The notes under the pieces: generated by a model | Told to the model about the DNA's origin: nothing | Seen by the model: the letters and a program-made list of their open reading frames with translations, nothing else | The model's database searches: none | In this document: one piece after another, positions 1-3,842 of the stretch | Numbering within the stretch: the first letter of the stretch is position 1 | Layout: every line of letters starts with the position of its first letter | From: a virus | Taxonomy: Duplodnaviria > Heunggongvirae > Uroviricota > Caudoviricetes | Length of the DNA stretch: 4,342 bases | Direction: 5' to 3' (one strand) | Virus record (IMG/VR): IMGVR_UViG_2609460218_000006 | Position numbers and translations under genes: made by a program

Positions 1-124
1 GCAGTTGCCATGTTTTACGGCAGTGAGAGCAGAGATAGCGCTGATGTCCGGCAGTGCTTTTGCCGTTACGCACCACCCCGTCAGTAGCTGAACAGGAGGG
101 ACAGCTGATAGAAACAGAAGCCAC
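1..124 (-). CDS. insA: IS1 InsA (transposition regulator), N-terminal 41 codons; 3' part outside window
   Basis: Minus-strand translation from the GTG at 124..122 gives [41 protein letters not shown], matching IS1 InsA as I recall it. The frame runs off the left edge, so it is absent from the ORF track. Confidence 0.85.
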
Positions 125-156
125 TGGAGCACCTCAAAAACACCATCATACACTAA

Positions 157-179
157 ATCAGTAAGTTGGCAGCATCACC
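157..179 (-). repeat. IS1 left terminal inverted repeat (IRL, about 23 bp)
   Basis: nt 157-179 (atcagtaagttggcagcatcacc) is the reverse complement of GGTGATGCTGCCAACTTACTGAT, the IS1 terminus as I recall it. Lambda-H-like coding sequence begins immediately after, at nt 180. Confidence 0.85.
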
Positions 180-1455
180 GAAAATCCTGCAGGCAGATTA
201 CAACACGCTGATGGCGGCGGCGAAAAAGGATTATGAAGCGATGCTGAAAAAGCCGAAACAGTCCGGCGTGAAAGTGTCTGCGGGCGATCGTCAGGAAGAC
301 AGTGCTCATGCTGCCCTGCTGACGCTTCAGGCTGAACTCCGGACGCTGGAGAAGCATGCCGGAGCAAATGAGAAAATCAGCCAGCAGCGCCGGGATTTGT
401 GGAAGGCGGAGAGTCAGTTCGCGGTACTGGAGGAGGCGGCGCAACGTCGCCAGCTGTCCGCACAGGAGAAATCCCTGCTGGCGCATAAAGATGAGACGCT
501 GGAGTACAAACGCCAGCTGGCTGCACTTGGCGACAAGGTTACGTATCAGGAGCGCCTGAACGCGCTGGCGCAGCAGGCGGATAAGTTCGCACAGCAACAA
601 CGGGCAAAACGGGCAGCCATTGAGGCGAAAAACCGGGGGCTTACTGACCGGCAGGCAGCGCGGGAAGCCACAGAACAGCGCCTGAAGGAACAGTATGGCG
701 ATAATTCGCTGGCGCTGAATAACGTCATGTCAGAGCAGAAAAAGACCTGGGCGGCTGAAGACCAGCTTCGCGGGAGCTGGATGGCAGGCCTCAGGTCCGG
801 CTGGAGTGAGTGGGAAGAGAGCGCCACGGACAGTATGTCGCAGGTTAAAAGTGCAGCCACGCAGACCTTTGATGGTATTGCGCAGAATATGGCGGCGATG
901 CTGACCGGCAGTGAGCAGAACTGGCGCAGCTTCACCCGTTCCGTGCTGTCCATGATGACAGAAATTCTGCTTAAGCAGGCAATGGTGGGGATTGTCGGGA
1001 GTATCGGTAGCGCCATTGGCGGGGCTGTTGGTGGCGGCGCATCCGCATCAGGCGGTACAGCCATTCAGGCCGCTGCGGCGAAATTCCATTTTGCAACCGG
1101 AGGATTTACGGGAACCGGCGGCAAATATGAGCCAGCGGGGATTGTTCACCGTGGTGAATTTGTCTTCACGAAGGAGGCAACCAGCCGAATTGGTGTCGGC
1201 AACCTGTACCGCCTGATGCGGGGCTATGCGGAAGGTGGTTATGTGGGCGGTGCCGGAAGTCCGGCGCAGATGCGGCGGGCTGAAGGCATTAATTTTAATC
1301 AGAACAATCACGTGGTGATTCAGAACGACGGTACGAATGGTCTGCCAGGTCCACAGATGATGAAGGCAGTGTATGACATGGCCCGCAAAGGTGCCCGTGA
1401 TGAAATTCAGGCACAGATGCGCGATGGTGGTCTGTTCTCCGGAGGTGGACGATGA
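180..1455 (+). pseudogene. H: Tail tape-measure protein gpH, 3' fragment (about 424 C-terminal codons) truncated at its 5' side by IS1
   Basis: Translation from nt 181 (KILQADYNTLMAAAKKDYEA ... KAVYDMARKGARDEIQAQMRDGGLFSGGGR, stop TGA 1453-1455) matches the C-terminal half of lambda gpH (853 aa) as I recall it. In-frame stops lie upstream at 85-87, 103-105 and 154-156 inside IS1. The track's TTG start at 166 is inside the IS1 inverted repeat and is not a genuine start. Confidence 0.9.
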
Positions 1456-1781
1456 AGACCTTCCGCTGGAAAGTGAAACCCGGTATGGATGTGGCTTCGG
1501 CCCCTTCCGTCAGGAAAGTGCGCTTTGGTGATGGCTATTCCCAGCGAGCGCCTGCCGGGCTGAATGCCGACCTGAAAACGTACAGCGTGACGCTTTCTGT
1601 TCCCCGTTGGGAGGCCACGGCGCTGGAGTCGTTTCTGGCTGAGCACGGGGGCTGGAAAGCCTTTCTGTGGACGCCGCCTTATGAGTGGCGGCAGATAAAG
1701 GTGACCTGCGCAAAATGGTCGTCGCGGGTCAGTATGCTGCGTGTTGAGTTCAGCGCAGAGTTTGAACAGGTGGTGAACTGA
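1452..1781 (+). CDS. M: Minor tail protein gpM (tail-tip assembly), 109 aa
   Basis: Translation MKTFRWKVKPGMDVAS...RVEFSAEFEQVVN is near-identical to lambda gpM as recalled. GGAGG at 1441-1445 sits 6 nt before the ATG, and the ATG overlaps the H stop (ATGA, 1452-1455). Confidence 0.95.
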   Translation: MKTFRWKVKPGMDVASAPSVRKVRFGDGYSQRAPAGLNADLKTYSVTLSVPRWEATALESFLAEHGGWKAFLWTPPYEWRQIKVTCAKWSSRVSMLRVEFSAEFEQVVN

Positions 1782-2479
1782 TGCAGGATATCCGGCAGGA
1801 AACACTGAATGAATGCACCCGTGCGGAGCAGTCGGCCAGCGTGGTGCTCTGGGAAATCGACCTGACAGAGGTCGGTGGAGAACGTTATTTTTTCTGTAAT
1901 GAGCAGAACGAAAAAGGTGAGCCGGTCACCTGGCAGGGGCGACAGTATCAGCCGTATCCCATTCAGGGGAGTGGTTTTGAACTGAATGGCAAAGGCACCA
2001 GTACGCGCCCCACACTGACGGTTTCTAACCTGTACGGTATGGTCACCGGGATGGCGGAAGATCTGCAGAGTCTGGTCGGTGGAACGGTGGTCCGGCGTAA
2101 GGTTTACGCCCGTTTTCTGGATGCGGTGAACTTCGTCAACGGAAACAGTGGCGCCGATCCGGAGCAGGAGGTGATCAGCCGCTGGCGCATTGAGCAGTGC
2201 AGCGAACTGAGCGCGGTGAGTGCCTCTTTTGTACTGTCCACGCCGACGGAAACGGATGGCGCTGTTTTTCCGGGACGTATCATGCTGGCCAACACCTGCA
2301 TCTGGACCTATCGCGGTGACGAGTGCGGTTATAGCGGTCCGGCTGTCGCGGATGAATATGACCAGCCAACGTCCGATATCACGAAGGATAAATGCAGCAA
2401 ATGCCTGAGCGGTTGTAAGTTCCGCAATAACGTCGGCAACTTTGGCGGCTTCCTTTCCATTAACAAACTTTCGCAGTAA
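1781..2479 (+). CDS. L: Minor tail protein gpL (tail-tip protein with C-terminal cysteine cluster), 232 aa
   Basis: Translation MQDIRQETLNECTRAEQSASVVLWEIDLTEVGGERYFFCNEQ...FLSINKLSQ is near-identical to lambda gpL as recalled. Start overlaps the M stop (TGATG, 1779-1783). C-terminal cysteines lie in CIWTYRGDECGYSG and KCSKCLSGCKF. Confidence 0.95.
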   Translation: MQDIRQETLNECTRAEQSASVVLWEIDLTEVGGERYFFCNEQNEKGEPVTWQGRQYQPYPIQGSGFELNGKGTSTRPTLTVSNLYGMVTGMAEDLQSLVGGTVVRRKVYARFLDAVNFVNGNSGADPEQEVISRWRIEQCSELSAVSASFVLSTPTETDGAVFPGRIMLANTCIWTYRGDECGYSGPAVADEYDQPTSDITKDKCSKCLSGCKFRNNVGNFGGFLSINKLSQ

Positions 2480-2484
2480 ATCCC

Positions 2485-3228
2485 ATGACACAGACAGAAT
2501 CAGCGATTCTGGCGCACGCCCGGCGATGTGCGCCAGCGGAGTCGTGCGGCTTCGTGGTAAGCACGCCGGAGGGGGAAAGATATTTCCCCTGCGTGAATAT
2601 CTCCGGTGAGCCGGAGGCGTATTTCCGTATGTCGCCGGAAGACTGGCTGCAGGCAGAAATGCAGGGTGAGATTGTGGCGCTGGTCCACAGCCACCCCGGT
2701 GGTCTGCCCTGGCTGAGTGAGGCCGACCGGCGGCTGCAGGTGCAGAGTGATTTGCCGTGGTGGCTGGTCTGCCGGGGGACGATTCATAAGTTACGCTGTG
2801 TGCCGCATCTCACCGGGCGGCGCTTTGAGCACGGTGTGACGGACTGTTACACACTGTTCCGGGATGCTTATCATCTGGCGGGGATTGAGATGCCGGACTT
2901 TCATCGTGAGGATGACTGGTGGCGTAACGGCCAGAATCTCTATCTGGATAATCTGGAGGCGACGGGGCTGTATCAGGTGCCGTTGTCAGCGGCACAGCCG
3001 GGCGATGTGCTGCTGTGCTGTTTTGGTTCATCGGTGCCGAACCACGCCGCAATTTACTGCGGCGACGGCGAGCTGCTGCACCATATTCCTGAACAACTGA
3101 GCAAACGAGAGAGGTACACCGACAAATGGCAGCGACGCACACACTCCCTCTGGCGTCACCGGGCATGGCGCGCATCTGCCTTTACGGGGATTTACAACGA
3201 TTTGGTCGCCGCATCGACCTTCGTGTGA
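2485..3228 (+). CDS. K: Tail-tip assembly protein gpK with N-terminal JAB/MPN (JAMM) domain and C-terminal NlpC/P60-like domain; 247 aa as drawn
   Basis: Continuous ORF starting 5 nt after the L stop. HSH at nt 2686-2694 begins a complete JAMM metal-binding motif (HSHPGGLPWLSEAD = H-x-H-x7-S-x2-D), with an upstream E-x-CG element (APAESCGF). TDCYTLF and NHAAIY...HH in the C-terminal half fit an NlpC/P60-type Cys/His arrangement. The C-terminal 199 aa match lambda K as recalled. Start is uncertain: an internal ATG at 2629 with GGAGG at 2613-2617 corresponds to the classical 199-aa start. Confidence 0.85.
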   Translation: MTQTESAILAHARRCAPAESCGFVVSTPEGERYFPCVNISGEPEAYFRMSPEDWLQAEMQGEIVALVHSHPGGLPWLSEADRRLQVQSDLPWWLVCRGTIHKLRCVPHLTGRRFEHGVTDCYTLFRDAYHLAGIEMPDFHREDDWWRNGQNLYLDNLEATGLYQVPLSAAQPGDVLLCCFGSSVPNHAAIYCGDGELLHHIPEQLSKRERYTDKWQRRTHSLWRHRAWRASAFTGIYNDLVAASTFV

Positions 3229-3796
3229 AAACGGGGGCTGAAGCCATCCAGGCACTGGCCACACAGCTCCCGGCGTTTCGTCAGAAACTGAGCGACGGCT
3301 GGTATCAGGTACGGATTGCCGGGCGGGACGTCAGCACGTCCGGGTTAACGGCGCAGTTACATGAGACTCTGCCTGATGGCGCTGTGATTCATATTGTTCC
3401 CAGAGTCGCCGGGGCCAAGTCAGGTGGCGTATTCCAGATTGTCCTGGGGCTGCCGCCATTGCCGGATCATTCTTTACCGCCGGAGCCACCCTTGCAGCAT
3501 GGGGGGCAGCCATTGGGGCCGGTGGTATGACCGGCATCCTGTTTTCTCTCGGTGCCAGTATGGTGCTCGGTGGTGTGGCGCAGATGCTGGCACCGAAAGC
3601 CAGAACTCCCCGTACACAGACAACGGATAACGGCAAACAGAACACCTATTTCTCCTCACTGGATAACATGGTTGCCCAGGGCAATGTTCTGCCGGTTCTG
3701 TACGGTGAAATGCGCGTGGGGTCACGCGTGGTTTCTCAGGAGATCAGCACGGCAGACGAAGGGGACGGTGGTCAGGTTGTGGTGATTGGTCGCTGA
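3126..3796 (+). pseudogene. I: Tail assembly protein gpI, disrupted by a 1-nt deletion (-1 frameshift) in a G-run at about 3446-3449
   Basis: Frame 0 from ATG 3126 gives MAATHTLPLASPGMARICLYGDL...GGVFQIVLG, matching lambda gpI residues 1-108, then diverges (LPPLPDHS...) to a stop at 3528-3530. From nt 3449 the other frame reads AAAIAGSFFTAGATLAAWGAAIGAGGMTGILFSLGASMVLGG...QVVVIGR (stop 3794-3796), matching the rest of lambda gpI. One extra G at 3446-3449 would restore a 223-codon ORF. A sequencing error is an equally possible cause. Confidence 0.8.
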
Positions 3797-3814: not shown

Positions 3815-3842
3815 AAACCGCCTCCGGGCGGTTTTGTCGTTT
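3815..3842 (+). terminator. Terminator-like GC-rich hairpin plus T-tract in the I-J intergenic region (function unproven)
   Basis: aaaccgcc (3815-3822) pairs with ggcggttt (3827-3834) around a 4-nt loop tccg (3823-3826), followed by T-rich ttgtcgttt. Seen in sequence; no energy calculation was possible. Confidence 0.3.

What the first reader, a model, noticed from the sequence alone, without database searches (positions are those of the whole stretch)
2485..2700. K probably starts at 2485, not at the classical internal ATG, completing a JAB/MPN metalloprotease domain
The frame is open from an ATG 5 nt after the L stop. The extra 48 codons contain the E-x-CG element (APAESCGF) that normally precedes the HxH...S..D JAMM motif, found here at HSHPGGLPWLSEAD. 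My recollection is that lambda K is classically annotated as 199 aa, which corresponds to the internal ATG at 2629 and would leave a 149-nt gap after L. Both reported coordinates match both starts. K would then be a two-domain JAB + NlpC/P60 protein, a pairing reminiscent of ubiquitin-like/cysteine-ligase processing chemistry; its substrate in tail assembly is, to my knowledge, unresolved.
Basis: partly seen in the sequence, partly recalled or inferred. Interest (0 to 1): 0.5.

Follow-up and report, generated by a model that had tools for sequence, protein, structure and literature searches.

The report
Lambda K: full-length 247-residue gene
The tail-assembly gene K of this lambda-like phage does start right after gene L and encodes a complete two-domain protease, but this is already known; the textbook short version comes from one missing base in the 1982 lambda reference sequence.

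Summary
The window is the H-M-L-K-I-J tail-tip region of a lambda-like phage, 96.5% identical to lambda. An open frame runs from ATG 2485, 5 nt after the L stop, to 3228 (247 aa). Residues 1-48 supply the first helix, two strands and the catalytic Glu19 of a JAB/JAMM domain. Pfam Prok-JAB scores 51.8 bits with them and 22.8 bits (below cut-off) without. They are conserved down to 33% identity, and dN/dS is 0.34. Met49, the classical start, is Ile or Leu in 6 of 17 orthologues.

J02459/NC_001416 lack one G (window 2619), which breaks the frame. Resequenced lambda, at least 120 IMG/VR contigs and at least 15 stray lambda contigs in unrelated assemblies all carry the G.

RefSeq already annotates the 247-aa protein in E. 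coli prophages. The JAB + NlpC/P60 architecture and its link to the ubiquitin-like protein I were published in 2003-2006. [quoted passage not shown] What remains is a curation point: the lambda reference records still carry the truncated K.

The parts
1781..2479 (+). Gene L (minor tail / hub protein, 232 aa); its TAA stop is at 2477-2479
   Evidence: ORF list; Pfam Phage_tail_L, E = 2.8e-100; annotated as L in lambda records
2485..3228 (+). Gene K, full length (247 aa, 28.2 kDa): tail tip assembly protease, JAB + NlpC/P60
   Evidence: Open ORF; Pfam Prok-JAB at residues 3-98 and NLPC_P60 at 111-224; PGAP annotates the same 744-nt CDS in E. coli prophages and GenBank OM475427 does too; AlphaFold model with pLDDT 96.4
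2485..2628 (+). The 48 N-terminal codons that the classical annotation omits: helix 3-15, strands 21-27 and 30-36, and catalytic Glu19
   Evidence: Conserved in homologues at 33-95% identity; median dN/dS 0.34; matches residues 5 onward of the solved JAB proteins 2KKS and 2KCQ; secondary structure from the model
2539..2541 (+). Glu19 codon (GAG), the E of the E-x(n)-H-x-H-x7-S-x-x-D JAMM motif
   Evidence: Invariant in 17 of 17 orthologues, with synonymous GAG/GAA variation; at least 90% conserved in the 58-sequence alignment
2613..2617 (+). GGAGG Shine-Dalgarno-like sequence, 11 nt upstream of the internal ATG; it lies within the codons for Pro-Glu-Ala
   Evidence: Anti-SD duplex of -9.5 kcal/mol; present only in the lambda clade
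2619..2619 (+). The G that is absent from the 1982 lambda reference (J02459/NC_001416); its absence breaks the K frame there
   Evidence: Alignment; ORF lists; motif survey; IMG/VR scan gave 0 contigs without the G and at least 120 with it; lambda carry-over contigs with no mismatches differ from J02459 only by this base
2629..2631 (+). Met49 codon, the classical (199-aa) K start
   Evidence: J02459 annotation 14276..14875; replaced by CTG, ATC or ATA in 6 of 17 orthologues
2686..2727 (+). HSHPGGLPWLSEAD: JAMM zinc-binding motif H68-x-H70-x7-S78-x-x-D81
   Evidence: H68, H70 and D81 are invariant and S78 is at least 90% conserved across 58 homologues; S78 is invariant in the 16- and 17-sequence orthologue sets
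2815..3156 (+). NlpC/P60 (C40) papain-like domain, residues 111-224; putative triad Cys121 (2845-2847), His187, His199
   Evidence: Pfam NLPC_P60, 49 bits; H187 and H199 invariant, C121 at least 90% conserved; fold matches to MepS/Spr, LytE and C. difficile autolysins
3126..3796 (+). Gene I (ubiquitin-like domain + plug domain), the reported substrate of K. In this window a one-base deletion at 3446-3449 splits it into ORFs 3126..3530 and 3527..3796
   Evidence: ORF list; Pfam Lambda_tail_I at residues 14-97; alignment with lambda shows GGGGG shortened to GGGG; an I homologue follows K in every diverged genomic locus examined, L034-L048

Best explanation
Gene K of this lambda-like phage is a 247-codon gene. 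It starts at ATG 2485, 5 nt after the stop of L, and is probably translated by coupling to L, because no Shine-Dalgarno sequence precedes it. Its product (28.2 kDa) has two catalytic domains. The N-terminal domain is a JAB/JAMM zinc metalloprotease with Glu19, His68, His70, Ser78 and Asp81. The C-terminal domain is an NlpC/P60 papain-like domain with Cys121, His187 and His199. The 199-aa K of the textbooks is an artefact: the 1982 lambda sequence lacks one G (window 2619; about lambda 14266 from my memory of vendor notes). That shifts the frame, so the first ATG in the downstream frame was taken as the start. The likely function is that the JAB domain acts as a deubiquitinase-like peptidase. 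It would cut the N-terminal ubiquitin-like beta-grasp domain of the next gene product, gpI, away from gpI's C-terminal plug domain once gpI has docked in the J-I-L tail-tip initiator. Only gpI 135-223 remains in the virion, and K itself is not incorporated.

Shown here: the ORF, the domain completeness, the conservation, the selection, and the origin of the mis-annotation. Taken from the literature: cleavage of gpI by gpK (a meeting report), absence of K from virions, and gpI 135-223 in the tip lumen. Inferred: translational coupling, and any role for the NlpC/P60 domain.
For: ORF and coordinates. Pfam Prok-JAB covers residues 3-98 at 51.8 bits for the 247-aa form and scores 22.8 bits (below the cut-off of 25) for the 199-aa form. 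NCBIfam desampylase matches only the long form, weakly.

The N-terminal 48 residues align with every full-length homologue down to 33% identity. G22 and N38 are invariant, and P17, E19, C21 and F47 are at least 90% conserved. Median dN/dS for codons 2-48 is 0.34 against 0.15 for the rest. E19 and C21 show only synonymous change, and Met49 is not conserved. The K start lies within a few nt of the L stop in most of the diverged loci where L could be located; in Edwardsiella L039 the chosen ATG is 35 nt downstream, with an alternative GTG overlapping the L stop. Distant relatives have a Shine-Dalgarno sequence at the long start and none at the Met49 position.

Solved JAB proteins (2KKS, 2KCQ, PfJAMM1 5LD9/5LDA) align from profile position 3-17. 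The AlphaFold model has pLDDT 96.4, with helix 3-15 and strands 21-27 and 30-36 as integral parts of the domain. Foldseek hits include JAMM1-SAMP2, CSN5, AMSH, Rpn11 and NlpC/P60 enzymes.

The reference lacks one G. IMG/VR has 0 contigs without it and at least 120 with it. Lambda carry-over contigs with no mismatches differ from J02459 only by +G. PGAP and GenBank already annotate the 247-aa form.

Literature: PMC300881 (JAMM motif of lambda K), PMC1779556 (JAB + NlpC/P60, Ub-like gpI, predicted cleavage), PMC12908700 (gpK cleaves gpI), PMC10721106 (gpK absent from the virion, gpI 135-223 resolved), and bioRxiv 10.64898/2026.02.24.707460 (the F-pyocin I homologue loses its N-terminal region; the K homologue PA0639 is needed for tip assembly).
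Against: ATG 2485 has no Shine-Dalgarno sequence in the lambda clade (anti-SD dG +0.7 kcal/mol). The internal ATG 2629 has GGAGG (dG -9.5) at an 11-nt spacing, so some internal initiation cannot be excluded. Many gene callers pick the short start: clusters with 199-aa representatives hold about 11,000 sequences, against about 50,000 in clusters with 247-aa representatives. I found no N-terminal protein sequence, intact mass or ribosome-profiling evidence for gpK. The gpK-gpI cleavage is known to me only from a conference summary, not a full paper. Two further GenBank records lack the G (OR974322, OR474059), but they are base-for-base identical to J02459 and look reference-derived.
Confidence: 0.93

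Rival explanations
1. Two isoforms: lambda-clade phages make the 247-aa protein and also a 199-aa protein, initiated internally at the SD-preceded ATG 2629. The short form would have an intact NlpC/P60 domain but a crippled JAB domain, and might have its own role.
For: GGAGG lies 11 nt upstream of ATG 2629 with dG -9.5 kcal/mol, whereas the long start has no SD. The SD + ATG pair is present in most lambda-clade sequences.
Against: Met49 is Leu or Ile (CTG, ATC, ATA) in 6 of 17 orthologues, including two close relatives, L021 (96% identical) and L030 (87%). In distant relatives the equivalent ATG, where present, has no SD. The GGAGG is explained by the Pro-Glu-Ala codons. A 199-aa product would lack the catalytic Glu, one helix and two strands of the fold. 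No experimental sign of two products was found.
Confidence: 0.08
2. The classical annotation is right. K is the 199-aa protein starting at 2629, and the upstream open frame is non-coding or a decayed remnant.
For: It is the annotation of J02459, NC_001416 and several later lambda and HK630 records. The internal ATG has an SD.
Against: Protein-level conservation and dN/dS of 0.34 across codons 2-48. The JAB profile and solved structures need residues 3-48. The start codon is not conserved. The frame is broken only in J02459 and its copies.
Confidence: 0.02
3. The JAB domain is a catalytically dead scaffold. K acts only through NlpC/P60, for example as a peptidoglycan hydrolase or as the protease that matures the tape-measure protein gpH.
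For: NlpC/P60 relatives are mostly cell-wall hydrolases. The gpH cleavage has no assigned protease (PMC12617516).
Against: All JAMM catalytic residues are kept: H68, H70 and D81 are invariant and E19 and S78 at least 90% conserved across 58 homologues. K is absent from virions, and lambda virions carry no peptidoglycan hydrolase (PMC10721106, PMC12617516). K acts early at the tip initiator, whereas gpH is cut after tail completion (PMC12617516). The meeting report assigns the cleavage of gpI to the deubiquitinating domain (PMC12908700).
Confidence: 0.05

Closest known systems
Bacteriophage lambda gpK (tail tip assembly protein K; GenBank AAA96551 / NP_040598, 199 aa as deposited)
   Same: It is the same gene. 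The window K differs from resequenced lambda K (OM418625) by one residue, F103L, over 247 aa. The synteny H-M-L-K-I-J is the same.
   Different: The deposited reference protein lacks residues 1-48, because J02459 lacks one G. This window, like all other sequenced relatives, has the intact frame.
RefSeq 'C40 family peptidase' WP_089587466.1 / WP_000194780.1 of E. coli prophages; GenBank ULG00737.1 (phage D2); HK022/HK140 gp19 (minor tail protein K)
   Same: These are full-length K proteins annotated to start 1-5 nt after L, with the same two Pfam domains.
   Different: The name 'C40 family peptidase' reflects only the C-terminal domain. HK140 K is 236 aa, and its N-terminal 47 residues are about 44% identical to the window's.
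Prokaryotic JAMM/JAB peptidases that cut ubiquitin-like proteins: PfJAMM1 (PDB 5LD9/5LDA with SAMP2), haloarchaeal desampylase HvJAMM1 (NF041370), and the solved bacterial JAB proteins 2KKS and 2KCQ
   Same: The same fold and the same E...HxH-x7-S-xx-D motif. Sequence and fold matches cover K residues 3-105. All act, or are predicted to act, on a beta-grasp Ub-like partner.
   Different: Those are single-domain enzymes acting on free or conjugated Ubl proteins. K is fused to NlpC/P60, and its Ubl is the N-terminal domain of a structural protein, cut once during assembly. The desampylase score (30.5 bits) is far below that model's cut-off of 130, so K is not a member of that equivalog.
NlpC/P60 cell-wall endopeptidases (E. 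coli MepS/Spr 2K1G and 8XUD, B. subtilis LytE/CwlO, C. difficile Acd autolysins)
   Same: Papain-like fold and a Cys-His-His arrangement; Pfam PF00877 above its cut-off.
   Different: K has no signal peptide or cell-wall-binding domain, is cytoplasmic and non-virion, and no peptidoglycan substrate is known. Its substrate is undetermined.
F-type pyocin PA0639 (K counterpart) with PA0640 (I counterpart)
   Same: The gene order is the same. The I homologue loses its N-terminal region on maturation, and only its C-terminal plug is seen. Deletion of the K homologue gives tip-less tubes (bioRxiv 10.64898/2026.02.24.707460).
   Different: It is a tailocin rather than a phage, and the protease responsible was not identified there.

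Membership tests
JAB/MPN+ (JAMM) metalloprotease | Complete motif E-x(n)-H-x-H-x7-S-x-x-D | tested here: met
   E19 ... H68-S-H70-PGGLPWL-S78-EA-D81. All five are invariant in 17 orthologues. Across 58 homologues H68, H70 and D81 are invariant and E19 and S78 at least 90% conserved.
JAB/MPN+ (JAMM) metalloprotease | Profile match above the curated threshold, covering the whole domain | tested here: met
   Pfam PF14464 Prok-JAB: 51.8 bits (cut-off 25), protein residues 3-98 against profile positions 3-103 of 114. The 199-aa form scores only 22.8 bits.
JAB/MPN+ (JAMM) metalloprotease | MPN fold | tested here: met
   AlphaFold model with pLDDT 96.4. Foldseek probability 1.00 to 2KKS, PfJAMM1, CSN5, AMSH, Rpn11 and BRCC36. 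HMM hits to 2KKS, 2KCQ and 5LD9 at E = 1e-11 to 1e-13.
JAB/MPN+ (JAMM) metalloprotease | Zinc binding and peptidase or isopeptidase activity | not testable with these tools
   The only evidence is a meeting report that gpK cleaves the Ub-like domain of gpI (PMC12908700).
NlpC/P60 (C40) papain-like peptidase | Profile match above threshold, and the fold | tested here: met
   Pfam PF00877: 49.2 bits (cut-off 23), residues 111-224, full profile 1-105. Fold matches to MepS, LytE and Acd autolysins.
NlpC/P60 (C40) papain-like peptidase | Catalytic Cys at a helix N-terminus plus His and a third polar residue | tested here: met
   C121 sits at the start of helix 121-131. H187 and H199 are invariant and C121 is at least 90% conserved.
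NlpC/P60 (C40) papain-like peptidase | Demonstrated hydrolytic activity and a known substrate | not testable with these tools
   No report of an activity was found; the literature calls the function unknown (PMC12617516, PMC13455828).
Lambda-type tail tip assembly protein K (TAPK) | Position between L (hub) and I (Ub-like plug protein), upstream of J | tested here: met
   Window ORFs and Pfam hits for L and I. The same order holds in Citrobacter, Edwardsiella, Budvicia, Limnobaculum and Chania loci.
Lambda-type tail tip assembly protein K (TAPK) | Family length of about 235-250 aa, with the start adjacent to the L stop | tested here: met
   Full-length representatives at 33-60% identity are about 228-271 aa long and align from query residues 1-19, mostly 4-12. 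Gaps between L stop and K start are short in most loci examined, and 35 nt for the ATG chosen in L039.
Lambda-type tail tip assembly protein K (TAPK) | Actual N-terminus of the protein made in infected cells | not testable with these tools
   No proteomic or ribosome-profiling data could be retrieved.

The most novel reading that the evidence does not exclude
In lambda-clade phages the SD-preceded internal ATG (2629) is used alongside the coupled start at 2485. This would give a second, 23-kDa K isoform with an intact NlpC/P60 domain and no functional JAB, with a distinct or regulatory role in tail-tip assembly, by analogy with other lambda nested-start pairs. Separately, this window's split gene I (Ubl ORF plus plug ORF from Met135) might represent a natural bypass of the K-dependent cleavage step.
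Probability: 0.07. Interest if true: 0.4.

Novelty: already known. Interest (0 to 1): 0.15.

Why it matters
The practical value is curation. The two most-used lambda records (J02459 and NC_001416) still encode a truncated K without the catalytic glutamate, and so do several later records that copied them. From memory, the 199-aa UniProt entry does too. Analyses based on these records miss the JAB domain. For example, a 2020 survey using the 199-aa protein found only a peptidase domain at residues 52-182 (PMC7291167). Anyone expressing, mutating or modelling gpK should use the 247-aa sequence. The biology is already in the literature: a deubiquitinase-like enzyme that removes a ubiquitin-like domain from a tail-tip protein as an assembly checkpoint.

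Tried and rejected
- I looked for a paper that explicitly reports the extra G or the corrected K start. Searches found none. The Casjens & Hendrix 2015 review and the Liu et al. 2013 lambda ribosome-profiling paper are not held, so I cannot say whether the correction is in print.
- My memory that vendor notes list a G insertion at 14266 could not be verified.
- I considered that the G-less state might be a real allele. Two extra GenBank records lack the G, but both are 100% identical to J02459 over 4163 nt. One is an UNVERIFIED engineered strain and the other is a 'chicken cloaca' isolate with reference coordinates. I treat them as reference-derived.
- I considered modelling a K-I complex to locate the scissile glycine. 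The structure tool takes single chains from the window only and returns no coordinates, so this was not attempted.
- dS is saturated for the most distant pairs. The dN/dS medians therefore rest on 53 pairs with usable dS.

Full report
**What the window is.** The 4342-nt window carries the C-terminal part of the tape-measure gene H, then M (1452..1781), L (1781..2479), K, I and the start of J (ATG 3857). From position 180 onward it is 96.5% identical to lambda J02459 11828-15990 and 99.7% identical to prophages in many E. coli genomes. It is therefore a lambda-type tail-tip module, not lambda itself.

**Checking the observation.** The L stop TAA is at 2477-2479. An ATG follows at 2485, and the frame stays open to TGA 3226-3228, giving 247 aa. 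APAESCGF is residues 16-23 and HSHPGGLPWLSEAD is residues 68-81. The internal ATG is codon 49 (2629), which leaves a 149-nt gap after L. J02459 and NC_001416 do annotate K as 14276..14875, 199 aa.

**Why the classical gene is short.** Aligning the window, J02459 and a resequenced lambda hybrid (OM418625) shows a single difference in this stretch. J02459 reads GGAGGC-TATTT where the other two read GGAGGCGTATTT; the extra G is window position 2619. In J02459 the ATG after L therefore opens only a 76-codon frame, and the K frame becomes readable only from the next ATG. In OM418625 the 247-codon frame is open.

The G is present in every other sequence I examined:
- E. coli prophages and HK630.
- At least 15 low-coverage contigs in assemblies of unrelated bacteria (Neobacillus, Shewanella, Bradyrhizobium and others). 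These are evidently stray lambda DNA, matching J02459 with zero mismatches and exactly one gap. A few further such contigs carry 1-6 mismatches.
- An exact-match scan of IMG/VR, which found 0 contigs with the G-less 31-mer and at least 120 with the G-containing 32-mer.

Two further GenBank records lack the G (OR974322, OR474059). They are identical to J02459 base for base and look reference-derived. The 199-aa K is thus a consequence of one missing base in the 1982 sequence.

**Is the extension coding?** There are four independent lines of evidence.
1. *Profiles.* Pfam Prok-JAB matches residues 3-98 (profile positions 3-103 of 114) at 51.8 bits. The 199-aa form gives 22.8 bits, below the cut-off of 25. 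The NCBIfam desampylase model matches, weakly, only the long form.
2. *Homologues.* Sixteen enterobacterial orthologues at 67-95% identity conserve ILAHA..CAPAESCG.VV....G..Y.PC.N.S as strongly as the rest of the protein. An exhaustive search of 1.84 billion representatives found 1731 relatives at E <= 1e-10. The full-length ones, at 33-60% identity and about 228-271 aa, align from query residues 1-19, mostly 4-12. In a 58-sequence alignment G22 and N38 are invariant, and P17, E19, C21 and F47 are at least 90% conserved.
3. *Selection.* For codons 2-48 the median pairwise dN/dS is 0.34, against 0.15 for codons 49-247. Glu19 (GAG/GAA) and Cys21 (TGC/TGT) change only synonymously.
4. *Structure.* The alignment-based AlphaFold model has pLDDT 96.4 and pTM 0.90. 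Residues 1-48 form helix 3-15 and strands 21-27 and 30-36. Solved JAB proteins (2KKS, 2KCQ) align from profile position 3-4. Foldseek recovers PfJAMM1 (free and bound to the ubiquitin-like SAMP2), CSN5, AMSH, Rpn11 and BRCC36 for the N-terminal half, and MepS/Spr, LytE and autolysins for the C-terminal half.

**The start codon.** Met49 is Leu or Ile (CTG, ATC, ATA) in 6 of 17 orthologues, including two close relatives, so the classical start is not a conserved feature. In most diverged loci where L could be located, the K start lies within a few nucleotides of the L stop; in Edwardsiella L039 the ATG I chose is 35 nt downstream, with an alternative GTG overlapping the stop. The honest counter-evidence is that, in the lambda clade, ATG 2485 has no Shine-Dalgarno sequence (dG +0.7 kcal/mol), while ATG 2629 has GGAGG 11 nt upstream (dG -9.5). 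More distant relatives show the opposite pattern: a Shine-Dalgarno sequence at the long start (-6 to -9) and none at the Met49 position. The lambda GGAGG coincides with the Pro-Glu-Ala codons. I infer translational coupling to L in the lambda clade, consistent with the 4-nt H/M and 1-nt M/L overlaps. A minor internally initiated product cannot be ruled out. That SD is probably why gene callers often choose the short start: clusters with 199-aa representatives hold about 11,000 sequences, against about 50,000 in clusters with 247-aa representatives.

**How it most likely works.** K carries a complete JAMM site (E19, H68, H70, S78, D81) and an intact NlpC/P60 triad (C121, H187, H199). The next gene, I, has an N-terminal Lambda_tail_I domain. 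It follows K in every diverged genomic locus I examined (L034-L048), with a conserved ...IHI(V/I)PRxxGA... end to that domain.

The literature fills in the rest:
- Ambroggio et al. listed lambda K among JAMM proteins (PMC300881).
- Iyer, Burroughs and Aravind described K as JAB + NlpC/P60 and gpI as a ubiquitin-like beta-grasp domain plus a C-terminal domain. They predicted that the JAB domain releases the Ub-like domain at its C-terminal glycine (PMC1779556).
- Cryo-EM and mass spectrometry show that gpK is absent from virions and that only gpI 135-223 sits in the tip lumen (PMC10721106, PMC12617516).
- In F-pyocin the I homologue loses its N-terminal region on maturation, and deleting the K homologue gives tip-less tubes (bioRxiv 10.64898/2026.02.24.707460).

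The mechanism I commit to is therefore that the JAB domain of full-length K is a deubiquitinase-like assembly checkpoint protease acting on gpI. The role of the NlpC/P60 domain remains unassigned. A second cut in gpI or substrate docking seem to me more likely than peptidoglycan hydrolysis or gpH maturation, but this is inference only.

**Novelty.** The domain architecture and the K-I functional link were published in 2003-2006. PGAP already annotates the 744-nt CDS as WP_089587466.1 and WP_000194780.1. GenBank OM475427 annotates a 247-aa 'assembly protein K', and HK140 has a 236-aa K one nucleotide after L. In a spread of 60 phage records whose DNA encodes the N-terminal peptide, most annotate it as part of a K-like CDS and a minority leave it unannotated. 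The finding is correct but already known. Its residual value is as a curation flag for J02459/NC_001416 and for records that copied them (OM418625, JQ086376). It is also a warning for analyses built on the 199-aa protein (PMC7291167).

**Limits.** I found no direct protein-level evidence for the N-terminus of gpK. I could not retrieve the lambda ribosome-profiling paper or the 2015 Casjens-Hendrix review. The gpK-gpI cleavage rests on a meeting summary. My recollections that vendor documentation lists a G insertion at 14266 and that UniProt P03729 is 199 aa are from memory only.

Noticed in passing
window 3126-3796 (G-run 3446-3449; ATGA at 3527-3530): Gene I is frameshifted here: GGGGG in lambda and in the 99.7%-identical prophages is GGGG in the window. 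This gives a 134-aa ORF (intact ubiquitin-like domain plus an out-of-frame tail) whose stop overlaps the ATG of an 89-aa ORF starting at Met135. That second ORF is exactly the gpI segment (135-223) resolved in the virion tip (PMC10721106). The G4 variant has 0 exact matches in IMG/VR. It could be a homopolymer sequencing error, a decaying prophage, or a natural split that bypasses K-dependent cleavage.
   Followed up: partly
window 3126 vs 3225 (start of I): PGAP and some GenBank records start I at GTG 3225 (190 aa, 4-nt overlap with the K stop) instead of the classical ATG 3126 (223 aa). Pfam Lambda_tail_I begins at residue 14 of the 223-aa form, so the 190-aa call removes the first strand (RICLYGDLQRFGRR) of the ubiquitin-like domain. 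Distant relatives start at the Met14 equivalent, and an Edwardsiella relative lacks that Met and needs the upstream one. With the classical start, K and I share a 103-nt dual-coding overlap.
   Followed up: partly
loci L006-L017, L024, L026, L031, L032, L036, L037, L046 and others: Many low-coverage contigs in genome assemblies labelled Neobacillus, Pseudoxanthomonas, Pseudomonas, Shewanella, Bradyrhizobium, Enterococcus and others are lambda DNA. About 15 have zero mismatches to J02459 apart from the extra G, and a few have 1-6 mismatches. This is evidently laboratory carry-over or spike-in contamination in public assemblies.
   Followed up: partly
window 2791-2793 (K residue 103): The window's K has Leu at position 103 where lambda and all 15 other aligned enterobacterial orthologues have Phe (IHKFRC). 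Together with the I frameshift, this may hint at relaxed constraint in this copy.
   Followed up: no
window ~3815-3838, between I and J: A GC-rich hairpin followed by a T-run (AAACCGCCTCCGGGCGGTTTTGT) sits in the 60-nt I-J intergenic region, resembling an intrinsic terminator inside the late operon (sequence printed).
   Followed up: no
window 1-179: The first 179 nt (within the tape-measure gene) do not match lambda or most prophages. Only one E. coli genome (14EC007, where the gene is truncated next to IS1) covers the whole window, at 96.1% identity. This points to a mosaic junction in H.
   Followed up: no
K protein, PHROG hits: PHROG families 7305 (76 positions), 2635, 2552 and 24556 each match only a piece of K at very high scores. 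They look like families built from fragmentary or split K gene calls rather than real proteins.
   Followed up: no
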